Shown one piece after another: positions 1,800 through 56,143 of a stretch of DNA of 64,000 nucleotides. This DNA is from Octopus vulgaris (Eukaryota). The number at the start of each line of letters is the position of its first letter. Positions within the stretch are counted from its first letter, which is position 1. Under the pieces are notes generated by a model that was given only the letters and a program-made list of their open reading frames with translations, had not been told where the DNA came from and made no database searches. The stretch is taken from assembly GCA_951406725.2 (NCBI GenBank), contig OX597842.1:28954001-29018000 (forward strand). The letters run 5' to 3'. The position numbers and the translations under genes were made by a program.

Positions 1800-4291
1800 G
1801 TCAGGATCATCATCATCATCATCATTATTACTCTTTTACTAGTTTCAGTCATTTGACTGCGGCCATAAGAAACTTTTTACTTAAAATATTGCAGCTAAAA
1901 TTAAAATTTGAATTTTAAAACTTATTTTATTAAAGCTTACAAATAACACTATACTTATTTAAGTAGAATTTTGGCTAATTTACTACCTTAAATACAGAAA
2001 AAAGTGACTAATTAGACAAACTTGCAAATTAGCTGAACAGTTTTGTACAATAAATTTAAAAGATGAGAACTGTAAAGAGGGATAAATTAGAAGAACTGGC
2101 ATTCTTTGCTGCAATATTTTAAGTAAGAAGTTTCTTAATCTTTACTACAGGTAATAGCTTGTCCTATACTTTTCCAGGTGTAATAACTTGTACTTTTCCA
2201 GGTTTATAATCTTGAGAATATAACTTTTCATACACACATTTTTCCATGTAATTATAATAGAAGACTAACACTAACTTTACCTTTCATTGTTGTGAGGTGG
2301 ATAAAATAAAGTAGCAGTGATATACTGGGGTAGATTTAATATTCCTGGAATAGATCCAAGATGTCAATGGAATTATAATAGAAGACTAACACTAACTTTA
2401 CCTTTCATTGTTGTGGGGTGGATAAAATAAAGTAGCAGTGATATACTGGGGTAGATTTAATATTCCTGGAATAGATCCTAGATGTCAATGGAATTATAAT
2501 AGAAGACTAACACTAACTTTACCTTTCATTGTTGTGGAGTGGATAAAATAAAGTAGCAGTGATATACTGGGGTAGATTTAATATTCCTATAAAACATCCA
2601 AGATGTCAATGGAATTATAATAGAAGACTAACACTAACTTTACCTTTCATTGTTGTGGAGTGGATAAAATAAAGTAGCAGTGATATACTGGGGTAGATTT
2701 AATATTCCTATAAAACATCCAAGATGTCAATGGAATTATAATAGAAGACTAACACTAACTTTACCTTTCATTGTTGTGGAGTGGATAAAATAAAGTAGCA
2801 GTGATATACTGGGGTAGATTTAATATTCCTATAAAACATCCGAGATGTCAATGGAATTATAATAGAAGACTAACACTAACTTTACCTTTCATTGTTGTGG
2901 GGTGGATAAAATAAAGTAGCAGTGATATACTGGGGTAGATTTAATATTCCTATAAAACATCCAAGATGTCAATGGAATTATAATAGAAGACTAACACTAA
3001 CTTTACCTTTCATTGTTGTGGAGTGGATAAAATAAAGTAGCAGTGATATACTGGGGTAGATTTAATATTCCTATAAAACATCCGAGATGTCAATGGAATT
3101 ATAATAGAAGACTAACACTAACTTTACCTTTCATTGTTGTGGGGTGGATAAAATAAAGTAGCAGTGATATACTGGGGTAGATTTAATATTCCTATAAAAC
3201 ATCCAAGATGTCAATGGAATTATAATAGAAGACTAACACTAACTTTACCTTTCATTGTTGTGGAGTGGATAAAATAAAGTAGCAGTGATATACTGGGGTA
3301 GATTTAATATTCCTATAAAACATCCAAGATGTCAATGGAATTATAATAGAAGACTAACACTAACTTTACCTTTCATTGTTGTGGAGTGGATAAAATAAAG
3401 TAGCAGTGATATACTGGGGTAGATTTAATATTCCTATAAAACATCCAAGATGTCAATGGAATTATAATAGAAGACTAACACTAACTTTACCTTTCATTGT
3501 TGTGGAGTGGATAAAATAAAGTAGCAGTGATATACTGGGGTAGATCTAATATTCCTATAAAACATCCAAGATGTCAATGGAATTATAATAGAAGACTAAC
3601 ACTAACTTTACCTTTCATTGTTGTGGGGTTGATAAAATAAAGTAGCAGTGATATACTGGGGTAGATTTAATATTCCTATAAAACATCCAAGATGTCAATG
3701 GAATTATAATAGAAGACTAACACTAACTTTACCTTTCATTGTTGTGGAGTGGATAAAATAAAGTAGCAGTGATATACTGGGGTAGATTTAATATTCCTAT
3801 AAAACATCCAAGATGTCAATGGAATTATAATAGAAGACTAACACTAACTTTACCTTTCATTGTTGTGGGGTTGATAAAATAAAGTAGCAGTGATATACTG
3901 GGGTAGATTTAACATTCTTATCGAACATTGTAAATGTCAGTGAAATTAATTATACAAGGCTAACACTAACTTCCTATTTTTCCTTTATCTTTCCAGCTAA
4001 TGTAACCATTTCAGCATCACGGGTTCAGCTACTCGACCAACGAGACCGATCAATCAGAAATGGTAAGGTGCATCCCTGCAAAACCCCAATTTTAATGATA
4101 ACACTTAAGTTATAAGTGACGTTTAGTCATTATATTCAGCCTTTCTCCAAAAAGCCAAATAAAATAATCCATTTCCCAATAGAAAACAATAAATAGCATT
4201 ACATTACTGTAACAAAACTAAATAGAGAATATACTATAACAATATAAGCTAAGAGAAAGCTGAAGGTAGCTTAATAACCGCTACACACCTT

Positions 4292-11824: not shown

Positions 11825-14800
11825 GTTTGTATGTATATATAGTGAGAGTTTAGAGAAAATCAAAATCAAAATCGATCAACATCAATGGAAATTGTAGCTG
11901 TGATACCAGTGTTGGTGGCACGTAAAAGAACCATCCGAACATGGCTGTTGCCTGCGCCGCCCTGACTGGCCTCCGTGCCGGTGGCACGTAAAAAGCACCC
12001 ACTACACTCACGGAGTGGTTGGCATTAGGAAGGTCATCCAGCTGTAGAAACACTGCCAGATCAGACTGGAGCCTGGTGCAGCCTCCTGGCTTCCCAGACC
12101 CCAGTTGAACCGTCCAAGCTGTGCCAGCATGGAAAGTGGACAATGATGATGATGAAAAGCTGGAGATGGGTGAAGGAAAAATAAGCAGATGTTTTAGTTT
12201 AATGCTTGGGAAAAAAGGAAAAGTCTTTGATGTTTTAAGCCTATACCTTTCAACAGAAAGGAATAAGGGGAAGAAAACCATAAAACGGGGAGAGAAAGGA
12301 ATCTGTAGGGATTAACGGCTGAACATAATGATGTTTCATCATCACCAGCATCATCATCCTCCTCCTCATCATCATCCTCCTCCTCATCATCATCATCATT
12401 TAATGTCCATCTTCCATGCATGGGTCGGGTGGTTGACAGGTGGCAGCCAAGTAGAGAATCTACCCTAGTTTATTGTTTGTTATGGCAGGGATTTTATGGC
12501 TGGATGCCCTTCTTAACCCCAACCACTCTGCAGAGCAAAGTCAATGCTTTTTACAGGGCACTAGCACATGTGAAGTTAGTTTTGGTAAGATTTTTACAGC
12601 TGGATGCCCTTCCAAGTGGCAGCCACTTCACAGTGCAGACTGGATGCTTTTAATGTGGCACCTACACTGGCAAGGTCAGCACGTAACTCACAAGACAAGG
12701 AATTATGAGAAGGGCAGGGCATTTGAGGAGGGGACCTTGTGTCTGGGGAAGAAAGGTTAGAGTGTGACAGAGAGAGACAGAAGAAGGGGTCTTGCCACAA
12801 CGGAGGGGGCATTAGAGGAGGTAACTCGGGATCAAATGAGTGTAACGGAGAAATAAAGAGACAGAAATAGGCATCTTGCTATAGACGAGGTATATTTTGA
12901 TACACACACACACACACACACACATTTATATGTATGCCTTTATACATCTACTCATTTCTGTTTCTTTCTGCCTTTTCCAGAGAAGTCCAAACTCTTCGAC
13001 CAGAAGTAAGGACTTCCCCAGAAATCCACTTTGCTCTTCAGGTATACTCGGCCCTCAACAGTAACAATTACATCAAGTTTTTCAAACTGGCACGTACGGC
13101 CACTTTCCTTAGTTCCTGCATCATCCATCGCTATTTTATGCAGGTTCGCAGTAAAGCATTGAGGATTCTCCGCAAGGCTCTCACCTTTGGAGCGAAACCT
13201 GTCCCCGTGAGTAAACAACAACAACAACAACAATTGTTGCCTTTGTTTCTTTATTTTTTGTGCTTGGTTGACCATTCAGCACCACCGCTATTACTACCAC
13301 CACCACCATCACCACTACAACTTCAACTAGTACCACCACCACACCACCATCACCACTACAACTTCAACTAGTACCACCACACCACCACCATCACCACTAC
13401 AACTTCAACTAGTACCACCACCACACCACCTCCTTCACCACTACAACTTCAACTAGTACCACCACCACACCACCTCCTTCACCACCATCACCACTACAAC
13501 TTCAACTAGTACCACCACACCACCACCATCACCACTACAACTTCAACTAGTACCACCACCACACCACCTCCTTCACCACTACAACTTCAACTAGTACCAC
13601 CACCACACCACCTCCTTCACCACCATCACCACTACAACTTCAACTAGTACCACCACCACACCACCTCCTTCACCACCATCACCACTACAACTTCAACTAG
13701 TACCACCACACCACCACCATCACCACTACAACTTCAACTAGTACCACCACCACACCACCTCCTTCACCACCATCACCACTACAACTTCAACTAGTACCAC
13801 CACCACACCACCTCCTTCACCACCATCACCACTACAACTTCAACTAGTACCACCACCACACCACCACCTTCACCACCATCACCACTACAACTTCAACTAG
13901 TACCACCACCACACCACCTCCTTCACCACCATCACCACTACAACTTCAACTAGTACCACCACCTTCACTACTATCACCACTACTGCTACTATTATCACCA
14001 CTGCAACCACCACCACGCCACCTTCTCCACTACTATTACTACCATCACTCTACAATACCAATGTTTCTTCCTCACCAGTCCAACTCAGTAATTATACCAT
14101 TAGCACTAACCCCCCCCCACTCACCCATGCACTGCTTCTTCCCATCTTCACCATTTTAATGGTGGGATTCACTCTTTCTTCGGTCTTCTGTGAAAAATGA
14201 TTCCATCATTTCGTTAGTATTAAACCTTCACAAACGATTTTACTTCTTCTGTTTGTGTGTGTGTGTGTGTGTGTGCCTTGTGTAAAATGTTGATATGATT
14301 GCAGAGCGATGTGGGATAAAGTGTGTTGCTCAAGGATACAACACACTGCTTTGTCTAGGAATTGAAACCACAACCTTGCTTTCTTGAGTACAATACATTA
14401 AACAGTAATACATGTGCATCCATGTGTGTGTGAGAGAGAGAGAGAGATGTATAAATTGTTGTGGTCATTGCTGGTGCCTTGTAAATGGCCCCCACCCATG
14501 AATGATTGTCGTGGCCATTGCTGGTGTTATGTAAATGGCCTTTGTGGTGGTTGTGGCACATAAAAGCATCCATTATGCTTCAGTAGTGGTTGGTGTTAGG
14601 AAGGGCATCAAGCCATAGAAACCTCACCAAACCAAACTGGAACCTGGTGTCGCTCTCTGGCTCATCCGCTCCAGTCAAACCGTTTAATCCATGCCAGCAC
14701 GGAGCGCGGACATTAAATGATGATGATGAGATGTATATAGTGTGGCTGTGAAGTAAGAAGTTTGCTTTCCGTCCACATGGTTCTGGGTTCATTCCCACTG

Positions 14801-52331: not shown

Positions 52332-52503
52332 GTATGTATGAATAATATATATATTATGTATGTATGTATGAATATATATATATATATGTATGTATGTATG
52401 AATATATATATATATATATGTATGTATGTATGTATGTATATATACAGCCTCGAAAATTGTAAAGAAATTTCAAAAGACTGATTCCACTGCAGATCAACCT
52501 GGA

Positions 52504-52720
52504 CATGGCCAAAAAAGAAGTGTGAAGACCCCTCAGTTATGACCCTTTATATTTTCCAAAATCTCTAATTGGTTGGTCATGGCCAAAAAAGAAGCGTGAA
52601 GACCCCTCAGTTATGACCCTTTATATTTTCCAAAATCTCTAATTGGTTGGTCATGGCCAAAAAAGAAGTGTGAAGACCCCTCAGTTATGACCCTTTATAT
52701 TTTCCAAAATCTCTAATTGG
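52504..52720. repeat. 74-bp tandem repeat, 3 copies
   Basis: CATGGCCAAAAA starts at 52504, 52578, 52652. Confidence 0.9.
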
Positions 52721-53301
52721 TGGGTGGGAGAAAGATATCCCGCAAACAGGAGGCCTAACAGGACTGCATACAACTGATAAATCCTCTCCTAAAAGGGCCC
52801 CGAATGTCAGGTGAGGATTTTAGAAAAGGATTAAGTCTATCACCAAATACTGCAAGATATTTCAAGCTATGTATATGATATGTGGGTTATGTAGTTTACT
52901 CTTGAAATCATTGAGCTGTGGCCATGCTAGGGTTTATGTCCCCGTTACATAACGGTTCGGCAAAAGAGACCGATAGAATAAGTACTGGGCTTACAAAAGA
53001 ATAAGTCCCGGGGTCGAGTTGCTCGATTAAAGGCGGTGCCCCAGCATGGCCGCAGTCAAATGACAAACAAATAAAAGAGTATACACATATATACACACAC
53101 ACACATGCATATATACATACACACACACATATATACATATACAGATGCACACACACATATACATGCACGCACACACACATACATATACAGACACACACAT
53201 ATATACTCACAAACGCACATACACATATACATACACACACATAATACACACACATACACACAGCTAATAATGTAACATAAGTGCAGTGTGTATAAAACTT
53301 G

Positions 53302-53367
<66 letters not shown>

Positions 53368-53374
53368 TACATGC

Positions 53375-54344
53375 ATACATATATACGCCCATGCACACAC
53401 ACATACACACAGACAGACAAACCAAAGCCTTGTGGGTGGATTTTGTAGACAGAAACTGAAAGGAATCAATTGTATATATGTATATGTAAGTGTACGTGTG
53501 TCTTTGTCTCTGTGTTTCCCCCTCGTCACTGCTTCACAACTGCTGTTCGTTTATTTACACCCCCATAACTTACTGGTTTCACAAGAAGAAACTGATAGAA
53601 TAAGTACCAGGCTTATCAAAATAAAAAATCATTTACCAGTGTCTCACATTTTTGTTTGCCCACTCAGTTGTGTCTATCAATCTATCTTTTGTGTCTATCT
53701 GTGTGTAAATATATATATATATATATCTCATTTTCTCTTTTTTACTTGTTTCAGTCATTTTGACTGTGGCCATGCTGGAGCACCGCCTTTAATCGAGCAA
53801 CTTGATCCCGGGACTTATTCTTTTGTAAGCCCAGTACTTCTTTTATCGGACTCTTTTGCGGTTCGGCAAAAGAGACCAAAAGAATAAGTACTGGGCTTAC
53901 AAAGAATAAGTCCCGGAGTCGATATGCTCGATTAAAGGCACTGCTCCAGCATGGCCACAGTCAAAATGACTGAAACAAGTAAAAAAGAGAAAATGAGATA
54001 TATATATATATATATATATATTTACACACAGATAGACACAAAAGATAGATTGATAGACACAACTGAGTGGGCAAACAAAAATGTGAGACACTGGTAAATG
54101 ATTTTTTATTTTGATAAGCCTGGTACTTATTCTATCAGTTTCTTCTTGTGAAACCAGTAAGTTATGGGGGTGTAAATAAACGAACAGCAGTTGTGAAGCA
54201 GTGACGAGGGGGAAACACAGAGACAAAGACACACGTACACTTACATATACATATATACAATTGATTCCTTTCAGTTTCTGTCTACAAAATCCACCCACAA
54301 GGCTTTGGTTTGTCTGTCTGTGTGTATGTGTGTGTGCATGGGCG

Positions 54345-54355
<11 letters not shown>
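53375..54355. repeat. About 1-kb DNA palindrome (6-nt spacer), bounded by (TA)n tracts
   Basis: Centre CTCTTTTGC-GGTTCG-GCAAAAGAG at 53851-53874; matching ORF translations on opposite strands (53056-53529 minus vs 54201-54437 plus). Confidence 0.95.
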
Positions 54356-54440
<85 letters not shown>

Positions 54441-54710
54441 TCAGTAACAATAAAGGGTGAAATTAATTAATTTGGAATAATTATTAATTACACCAAGTAG
54501 ATTTCGGCATGTAAAAGCCTCATTCGAGGAAAATTTAAGTAATACTAAGCAATTAAGGGTTTAGCAACGAATGGGCTGGTGACACAAACTTTCATTCACA
54601 CTTTGAATTTCGTGGTACTGGTAATGCTTTAAGCTCGCTCTGACACTGAGTTGAGATGATGCCTTCTAGTATCTCAAAATTTAATATACAATTATTCATA
54701 ATTGTAGTAT

Positions 54711-54802
54711 CCTACGCTGATGAGAAAAGAAGTTTGGGTAAGGTAGAATTTTCTAATTCTTATGCTTTCCTAAAACTTGATTTCGAAACGTACGTCCGTA
54801 GG
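54711..54802 (+). ncRNA. Type I hammerhead ribozyme motif, intact core
   Basis: CCUACG-CUGAUGA-GAAA(extended stem II)UUUC-GAA-ACGUACGU-C-CGUAGG; predicted cleavage after C54796. Confidence 0.85.
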
Positions 54803-55065
54803 TGACTTAAAATTGTATGATAGATTGCCGTCATTTTATTCTCTCTTACCTGTCTGTGTTTGCCTTTCAAGTGCTGTGTTTTTACTGAGATCCCCCTTTT
54901 AGTAGAAAGAATAGCTATAACTCTTTGACTGCTATTTCTAAATTCGGTGTGTGGTGAGGCAATTCGTTGCTAAACCCTTAATTGCTTAGTATATATATAT
55001 ATATATAGATAGATAGATAGATAGATATGTACATATTACATGTACATTTATATATATACATCTAC

Positions 55066-55116
<51 letters not shown>

Positions 55117-55403
55117 TAATAATATAGGGTGAAATTAATTAATTTGGAGAAATCATCAATTCCACCAAGTAGATTTCGGCATGTAAAAGCCCCGTTCGAG
55201 GAAAGTTTAAGTAATACTAAGTAATTAAGGGTTTAGCAACGATTTGCCTCACCACACACCGAATTTAGAAATAGCAGTCAAAGAGTTGTAGCTATTCTTT
55301 CTACTAAAAGGGAGATCTCAGTAAAACCACAGCACTTGGAAGGCAAACACAGACAGGCAAGAGAGAAAGATATGACGACAATCGATCATACAATATTAAG
55401 TCA

Positions 55404-55494
55404 CCTACGGACGTACGTTTCGAAATTAAGTTTTAGGAAAGCATAAGAATTACATAATTATGTCTTACCCCACTTCTTTTCTCATCAGCGTAGG
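55404..55494 (-). ncRNA. Type I hammerhead ribozyme motif, intact core
   Basis: Minus strand gives the same CCUACG-CUGAUGA-G...UUUC-GAAACGUACGUC-CGUAGG with a diverged stem II. Confidence 0.85.
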
Positions 55495-56143
55495 ACACTA
55501 CAATTATGAATAATTGTATATTAAATTTCGAGGCACTAAAAAAGACATCATCTCAACTCATAGTATCAGAGCGAGCTAAAGCCGTTCCCAGTACCACCAA
55601 ATTCAAAGTGTGAATGAAAGTTTGTTCTATCAGCCCTCCTACCAGCGTGCAGCCAAGACAATATGTTGCGGTCATTTACTGGGATTAAATATGGTTATCA
55701 GTAATAATATAGGGTGAAATTAATTAATTTGGAGAAATCATCAATTCCACCAAGTAGATTTCGGCATGTAAAAGCCCCGTTCGAGGAAAGTTTAAGTAAT
55801 ACTAAGTAATTAAGGGTTTAGCAACGATTTGTATGATCGATTGTCGTCATATCTTTCTCTCTTGCCTGTCTGTGTTTGCCTTCCAAGTGCTGTGGTTTTA
55901 TTGAGATCTCCCTTTTAGTAGAAAGAATAGCTACAACTCTTTGACTGCTATTTCTAAATTCGGTGTGTGGTGAGGCAAATCGTTGCTAAACCCTTAATTA
56001 CTTAGTATATATATATATACATACATATATATATATATATATATACACATGTATATATATACACAGCTATATATATATATACATTTGTGAAGATGTATAC
56101 ATATATATAAACGGACGCTAAATGATGGTGATGACGATGATGA

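What the first reader, a model, noticed from the sequence alone, without database searches (positions are those of the whole stretch)
54437..56007. 585-nt ORF-less unit in partial-tandem plus inverted arrangement, embedded in (TA)n: retrozyme / pseudo-LTR-like element
Seen: a head block of about 130 nt recurs at 54437, 55111 and 55696 (last two 585 nt apart). The layout is head + inverted body, (TA)n, then head + body + spacer + head + short inverted body. Both blocks start and end in TA runs, and no ORF is present. Inference: more-than-unit-length copies fit reverse transcription of a circular or tandem RNA defined by hammerhead cleavage. The inverted tails fit Penelope-type insertion. This may be an undescribed cephalopod non-autonomous ribozyme retroelement that targets (TA)n.
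Basis: partly seen in the sequence, partly recalled or inferred. Interest (0 to 1): 0.72.

Follow-up and report, generated by a model that had tools for sequence, protein, structure and literature searches.

The report
Hammerhead retrozyme with Penelope-type insertion ends
These are two separate copies of a small, protein-less jumping repeat that carries a predicted self-cutting RNA motif and is scattered through this animal genome; the kind is known, and its two fixed ends suggest that a Penelope-type enzyme likely copies one RNA, possibly a ring, from both strands of the cut DNA.

Summary
The stretch is two independent insertions (9% diverged) of one 583-585-nt ORF-less unit, 118 nt apart in a TA tract. 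The 'head' is the RNA-sense 3' end. A type I hammerhead, missed by Rfam, lies at 55404-55494(-) and 54711-54802(+). A family 20-mer has 1,332 exact hits genome-wide. Of 61 two-armed insertions, 54 have one end near unit position 585 and the other near 482; 58 have TA at both ends. This is the Penelope 'tail' footprint, here about 103 nt. Segments within an insertion share one haplotype, and 55 of 109 arms read through the cleavage site, so the template was circular or uncleaved. Sister families share a structured 3' module. No protein-coding partner sharing the termini was found, and neither cleavage nor circles were shown. This locus lacks two direct ribozymes, so it is probably a dead-end daughter. 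Verdict: a new member of the animal non-LTR retrozymes (non-autonomous Penelope-like elements). This scan already reported the same two-start footprint for 360- and 490-nt families on other DNA of this genome.

The parts
54437..54570 (-). Insertion 1, arm ending at the unit 3' end (unit positions 454-585 plus AC), then (TA)n; young subfamily
   Evidence: 38 of 40 scored places (the window's own copy included) are 100% identical over its last 120 nt
54573..54992 (+). Insertion 1, inverted arm, unit positions 60-482, then (TA)n
54711..54802 (+). Type I hammerhead motif: 6-bp helix I, CUGAUGA core, long stem II, GAAA, 2-bp helix III with palindromic GUAC loop; predicted cut between 54796 and 54797
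   Evidence: motif scan; covariation; activity untested
54993..55110 (.). 118-nt (TA)n/(TAGA)n host tract between the two insertions
55111..55831 (-). Insertion 2, long arm of 721 nt: partial unit 450-585 followed by one full 585-nt unit, ending in (TA)n
55404..55494 (-). Type I hammerhead motif; predicted cut between 55410 and 55409 (after unit position 286)
   Evidence: activity untested
55111..55281 (-). 3' module shared by sister families: predicted 9-bp long-range helix (55263-55255 with 55183-55175) enclosing the 482 end, then an AU-rich terminal hairpin before the 585 end; likely the RT recognition signal
   Evidence: function inferred
55111..55213 (-). About 103-nt 'tail' between the two fixed ends (unit 483-585); present at one end of each insertion only
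55829..56008 (+). Insertion 2, inverted arm, unit positions 303-482, joined to the long arm by a 3-nt overlap, then (TA)n

Best explanation
The stretch is two independent insertions of a 583-585-nt non-coding, hammerhead-bearing repeat (an animal non-LTR retrozyme) that is likely pasted into (TA)n by a Penelope-like RT/GIY-YIG enzyme in trans. Shown: high copy number, TA flanks, two fixed ends about 103 nt apart, variable 5' truncation, arms longer than one unit, one haplotype per insertion. Inferred: (1) copies with two direct ribozymes are transcribed; (2) the RNA is likely cut and circularised (about 55%) or used as an uncleaved multimer (about 35%); (3) the enzyme, probably a dimer, binds the structured 3' module, nicks both strands of (TA)n and starts one cDNA near unit position 585 and the other near 482; (4) the two cDNA ends are joined, often by short overlaps, giving the inverted two-armed form, and an aborted second cDNA would give the one-armed form. 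The window's copies have no two direct ribozymes and would not yield a unit-length RNA.
For: Copy number: 1,332 exact hits of a family 20-mer and 553 of a ribozyme pattern (the latter includes close sister units), reversed controls 0. Ends: of 88 distinct insertions, 61 are two-armed; 54 of 61 have one end at 455-490 and one at 560 or above, none has two alike; 58 of 61 have TA at both ends; 27 of 27 one-armed have TA at the 3' end, against 5.3% for random 30-nt windows. In a sample anchored on the 482 end, 8 of 9 two-armed insertions follow the rule and none is 482/482. This matches the PLE layout in PMC8557442 and the two RT start sites bounding the tail in PMC11167929. One haplotype: 17 family-polymorphic differences in 20,394 overlapping sites within insertions (0.08%) against 2.67% between; 75 of 89 insertions have none. 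Read-through: 55 of 109 arms cross the cut, none ends at 285-289; 21 of 60 two-armed insertions have an arm over 600 nt. The two inner ends fall within 10 nt of each other in 10 of 38 same-lap pairs (2.7 expected, P=0.0002), as if both cDNAs stopped on one molecule. Ribozyme: helix I has two compensatory pairs between sister families A and B, 96% of cells paired; 47 of 60 distinct family-A motifs keep the core. Cut-to-cut monomers fold better than shuffles (circular z -6.6, -5.6, -8.0 on 30 shuffles each; linear z -3.5). Intact RT plus GIY-YIG ORFs exist in the genome.
Against: No autonomous partner shares the termini or the 3' module in 90 PLE-containing stretches, and no module-bearing locus was continuous with a PLE ORF; the driver is unidentified. 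A homogeneous linear multimer explains one haplotype and read-through as well as a circle; the circle-favouring class (inner ends coinciding one lap apart) is only 3 of 22, P=0.07. The longest array (L031, 9.8 units) alternates two variants, so it grew by local duplication after insertion. A sub-lineage with a CCGAUGA core spread to at least 5 loci and forms arrays, so fast cleavage may not be needed; in PMC11167929 uncleaved RNA was the main substrate, and in the 2026 preprint 8 of 9 tested frog dimers did not cleave. The ribozyme covariation rests on two families, hence few events. The isolated motif's minimum-energy fold is not the hammerhead core (z -0.8 and -2.2). Seven of 61 two-armed insertions break the end rule.
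Confidence: 0.86

Rival explanations
1. Same element and enzyme, but the template is an uncleaved linear multimer read from tandem copies; the ribozyme is a weak or vestigial pLTR relic and tandem length is restored by local duplication.
For: Arms read through the cut; L031 shows local dimer expansion; a CCGAUGA-core lineage spread; uncleaved RNA is the main substrate for the anole PLE (PMC11167929).
Against: Helix I and the palindromic loop are kept with compensatory changes across families 71% alike. Successive units almost never differ at family polymorphisms. Mussel, coral and axolotl units do form circles (PMC7229834).
Confidence: 0.35
2. The unit is only the pLTR and 3' end of a full-length Penelope-like family, and the copies are its 5'-truncated products.
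For: The end geometry is the same as for autonomous PLEs (PMC8557442). Only 150 of 6,136 GIY-YIG candidates were scored, and N-terminal-EN Naiad elements were not searched.
Against: Upstream of unit position 1 the copies continue into position 585 of another unit, not into an ORF; the same joint is in contigs of three further organism labels. No termini are shared with 90 PLE stretches.
Confidence: 0.08
3. The inverted arm arises by fold-back of a single cDNA, and the 482 end is a nuclease cut or template jump rather than a second RT start.
For: 13 of 60 two-armed insertions are near-palindromic at the junction.
Against: 47 of 60 are not; the 482 arm can be the longer one or exceed a unit; 9 of 27 one-armed insertions end at 482.
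Confidence: 0.12
4. Local misassembly or a non-mobile satellite.
For: The site lies in long TA tracts next to a 1.1-kb palindrome; no raw reads were available.
Against: The blocks differ by 9% and belong to different subfamilies; the same end rule holds at dozens of loci on many contigs.
Confidence: 0.02

Closest known systems
Animal non-LTR retrozymes (Cervera and de la Pena 2020, PMC7229834, parts 2-4 of 6 read; Li, Clavereau and Pollet 2026, bioRxiv 10.64898/2026.07.22.740005, parts 1-3 of 5 read)
   Same: ORF-less tandem units, one type I hammerhead each, GC under 50% (35%), self-paired predicted monomer, co-existing PLEs, proposed to be non-autonomous PLE derivatives.
   Different: The unit is longer than the 170-400 nt of the 2020 paper but within the 51-972 bp of the preprint. 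Stem II is very long. The parts I read do not describe fixed paired ends, (TA)n targeting or a shared 3' module; the preprint sampled no mollusc. Circles and cleavage are shown there and not here.
EN+ Penelope-like elements (Craig et al. 2021, PMC8557442, 12 passages seen; Frangieh et al. 2024, PMC11167929, parts 1-2 of 4 read)
   Same: Partial tandems, an inverted 5'-truncated copy, a tail at one end, AT-rich or microsatellite targets, and two RT start sites bounding the tail.
   Different: No ORF. The tail is about 103 nt, not 30-40. The two starts are paired one per end in 54 of 61 cases, whereas in vitro the anole enzyme showed no strand difference in start site.
Non-autonomous Chlamys elements such as MRC1 (passage in PMC8557442)
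   Same: Non-autonomous PLE-type elements with pLTRs and multicopy head-to-tail insertions.
   Different: Those generally resemble an autonomous family at the 3' end, and that clade lacks canonical hammerheads; here the hammerhead is present and no partner was found.
L1 twin priming (PMC2837659, search listing only; mechanism recalled)
   Same: Two target-primed cDNAs give an inverted two-armed insertion.
   Different: In L1 the second start is variable and the arms do not overlap (recalled); here it is fixed and the arms overlap in unit phase.

Membership tests
Animal non-LTR retrozyme | Type I hammerhead in each unit | tested here: met
   Rfam scan found none, the motif was found by a pattern scan
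Animal non-LTR retrozyme | Head-to-tail tandem units, at least two consecutive ribozymes | tested here: met
   Met by the family (L031, L032, L169, L320); not met by the window's own copies
Animal non-LTR retrozyme | No protein-coding capacity, low GC | tested here: met
Animal non-LTR retrozyme | Highly self-paired monomer | tested here: met
   Prediction only:
Animal non-LTR retrozyme | Self-cleavage of the RNA | not testable with these tools
   Needs in vitro transcription; cDNA ends give no reproducible sign of cutting
Animal non-LTR retrozyme | Expression as linear and circular monomer RNA | tested here: inconclusive
   Only assembled contigs of runs guessed to be RNA were available; they cannot show ends or circles
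Penelope-like element, autonomous | ORF with RT and GIY-YIG | tested here: not met
Penelope-like element, non-autonomous | Partial tandem plus inverted 5'-truncated copy, tail at one end | tested here: met
Penelope-like element, non-autonomous | AT-rich or microsatellite target | tested here: met
   58 of 61 and 27 of 27 against 5.3% background; target-site duplication cannot be read inside TA runs
Penelope-like element, non-autonomous | Terminal similarity to an autonomous family | tested here: inconclusive
   None in 90 PLE stretches; sampling incomplete, Naiads not searched
Catalogued Dfam or Repbase family | Match to a library entry | not testable with these tools
   Neither library is offered

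The most novel reading that the evidence does not exclude
A Penelope enzyme dimer copies one RNA circle from both nicked strands of (TA)n, one subunit per fixed start. The 170-nt structured module shared by several retrozyme families in this genome is the portable signal that recruits it, with no sequence match to any coding element. This would give genomic evidence for the proposed circle-to-genome step of animal retrozymes and a defined RNA substrate for testing how Penelope elements make their tails and inverted ends.
Probability: 0.3. Interest if true: 0.68.

Novelty: new member of a known kind. Interest (0 to 1): 0.4.

Why it matters
How animal retrozymes re-enter the genome, and how Penelope-like elements make tails and inverted ends, are stated as open in PMC7229834, PMC8557442 and PMC11167929. 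A young, ORF-less, high-copy family with a strict one-start-per-end rule and a short conserved RNA module gives a small substrate for both questions. The class itself is known, and this scan has noted the footprint in other families of this genome, so this locus adds a further family and the shared module, not a new system.

Tried and rejected
Rfam: no hammerhead hit; only low-complexity miRNA-type matches below threshold. cDNA ends piling at the cut: 8 ends at unit 287-302 against 2.9 expected (P=0.009, window chosen after looking) did not replicate (1 against 1.7 in 30 new arms), so rejected. Expression: no RNA holder listed; contigs of runs guessed to be RNA cover the unit but cannot show strand, ends, level or circles. 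Partner hunt, all negative: Pfam GIY-YIG search (150 of 6,136 candidates scored) with 59 stretches scanned by blastn and nhmmer; a second young PLE family, 31 stretches; tblastn on 68 module-bearing loci of sister families and on the family A/B loci held at that time. PLE fragments lay near L023, L103, L107, L108, L124 and L238. I inspected L042/L124 and L061 base by base and judged the others separate from TA flanks, orientation or distance only. A recalled Pfam accession was not in the library. GGT-rich loci L314-L319 with long frames are a duplicated low-complexity region without Pfam match. The alternating array L031 first looked like a mixed template, but none of its 17 variable sites is a family polymorphism. 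RNAalifold gave little covariation support for the module helix (covariation term +0.25), and 11 of 19 rows were selected for having both halves. Alignments A1 and A2 held wrongly placed rows and were not used; A3 was. In one search the overlap filter dropped the inverted arm of L005 (seen, a 482/585 case), so it is counted as one-armed.

Full report
Observation. Self-comparison confirms the layout. I number the unit on the minus strand, window 55695 to 55111 = positions 1-585, because that is the sense of the ribozyme. Block 1 (54437-54992) has an arm 454-585 facing left and an arm 60-482 facing right. Block 2 (55111-56008) has a 721-nt arm (450-585, then 1-585) facing left and an arm 303-482 facing right. 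All four outer ends run into (TA)n, with an AT or TA shared between element and target. The blocks differ by about 9%, while pieces inside block 2 differ by 0-0.6%, so they are two insertions. Block 1 belongs to a young subfamily: 38 of 40 scored places, its own included, are identical over its last 120 nt. There is no ORF.

Ribozyme. Rfam gave no hammerhead. A motif scan of the whole window gave exactly two, at 54711-54802(+) and 55404-55494(-): 6-bp helix I, CUGAUGA, a long stem II, GAAA, a 2-bp helix III with a palindromic tetraloop, and a GUC cleavage triplet. This fits the canonical metazoan type I motif that works as a dimer (passage in PMC4209133). On 19 copies of two sister families, 96% of cells pair and helix I has two compensatory pairs; these are few independent events. 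A 594-nt sister unit has a further compensatory change. Of 60 distinct family-A motifs 47 keep the core; a CCGAUGA variant occurs at five or more loci and in arrays. The window has no two direct ribozymes, so it would not give a unit-length RNA.

Family. The 2.8-Gb genome holds 1,332 exact hits of a family 20-mer and 553 of a ribozyme pattern, with reversed controls at 0. Hits are arms, not insertions. I sampled by full-unit and tail queries. After leaving out the window's own loci and repeat views of one insertion, 88 distinct insertions remained. Sixty-one are two-armed: 54 have one end near 482 and one near 585, none has two alike, seven have one aberrant end, and 58 have TA at both ends. 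Twenty-seven are one-armed, 18 ending near 585 and 9 near 482, all in TA. Random 30-nt windows pass the TA test 5.3% of the time. Because tail queries could hide 482/482 cases, I drew 29 loci with a query ending at 482; 22 were new, and 8 of 9 two-armed ones were 482/585 and none 482/482. Contigs of runs under four further organism labels cover the whole unit.

Template. Inner ends are scattered. Of 109 arms, 55 cross the predicted cut and none stops at 285-289; a small excess just downstream did not replicate. Segments of one insertion carry one haplotype: 0.08% family-polymorphic differences within against 2.67% between, with similar private rates of 1.0% and 1.5% (L031 left out of the totals). 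The two inner ends coincide within 10 nt in 10 of 38 same-lap pairs (P=0.0002) and 3 of 22 different-lap pairs (P=0.07). So both cDNAs likely come from one RNA that spans more than a unit. A circle explains this simply; a uniform linear multimer also does. The 9.8-unit array L031 alternates two variants built from private changes, which shows that arrays can also grow in place. Cut-to-cut monomers are predicted to be well folded.

Shared module. A 591-nt sister family is 71% alike and has the same layout and end rule. More distant families share the last 170 nt or so; one pattern, which does not match the typical family-A module, has 1,316 hits with control 0. The module is predicted to form a 9-bp long-range helix around the 482 end and an AU-rich hairpin before the 585 end. 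Covariation support is weak and partly circular. Its role as the RT signal is an inference from position and conservation.

Partner. The genome has intact RT plus GIY-YIG ORFs: a 781-aa family with a CxxC motif upstream of the nuclease (Neptune or Nematis type by the description in PMC8557442; not placed on a tree) that ends in (TA)n, and an 883-aa family. None of 90 PLE stretches shares the unit's termini. Sampling was partial and Naiads, which the same paper reports in Octopus and on (TA)n, were not searched.

Mechanism and comparison. In the anole PLE, reverse transcription starts at two internal RNA sites that bound the genomic tail, both target strands are cut and extended, and uncleaved RNA is the main substrate (PMC11167929). 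The 482 and 585 ends read as those two starts, used one per strand. Non-LTR retrozymes are described in coral, mussel and axolotl, with PLEs proposed as drivers (PMC7229834), and a 2026 preprint ties them to PLE pLTRs. Five full-text searches listed no paper on a cephalopod retrozyme; the library lacks most subscription papers. I read no supplements; those of PMC7229834 (invertebrate examples) and PMC8557442 (Octopus families) may bear on novelty. Earlier notes of this scan describe the same two-start footprint in 360- and 490-nt families of this genome; I had reached that reading before seeing them, and they are not independent support.

Verdict. A real, recently active, non-autonomous Penelope-type retrozyme family; a new member of a known kind; interest 0.4.

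Noticed in passing
window 53304-54435: A 1.1-kb palindrome (95.6% over 1,128 nt; outer 422-nt arms 99%) built of common repeats, ending in the same TA tract as insertion 1. Could be a fold-back duplication or an assembly artefact.
   Followed up: no
L143, L147 (591 nt); L320 (594 nt); L168 (about 555 nt); L006:127-877: Sister ORF-less tandem families sharing the 3' module, several with the same ribozyme layout.
   Followed up: partly
L065:1745-4087, L066-L068: Young intact 781-aa RT plus GIY-YIG family ending in (TA)n, with a degenerate hammerhead-like motif near its 3' end; a candidate driver without terminal similarity.
   Followed up: partly
L273-L303: A second young PLE family (883-aa frame in L303) with a long CA-rich 3' arm holding a GC-rich hairpin block, arranged in tandem about 6.2 kb apart.
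   Followed up: partly
L157, L165, L174, L175, L181; G000:C1:133662594-133664450: A CCGAUGA-core ribozyme variant that spread and forms four-unit arrays; either a tolerated variant or a sign that cleavage is dispensable.
   Followed up: partly
L028:2085-2186, L118:1621-1712: Two insertions end near unit position 90-100 before TA, perhaps a minor third start site.
   Followed up: no
L071:3417-3497, L092, L093: Other hammerhead families with long stem II, unrelated in sequence to this unit, some as inverted pairs.
   Followed up: no
window 2246-3972, 13296-14016, 52500-52725: Unrelated tandem arrays: 121-nt unit x14, ACC-rich array, 74-nt unit x3.
   Followed up: no
L314, L315, L317-L319: A dispersed duplicated region with a long GGT-rich tract that carries a truncated module copy; no Pfam match.
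   Followed up: partly
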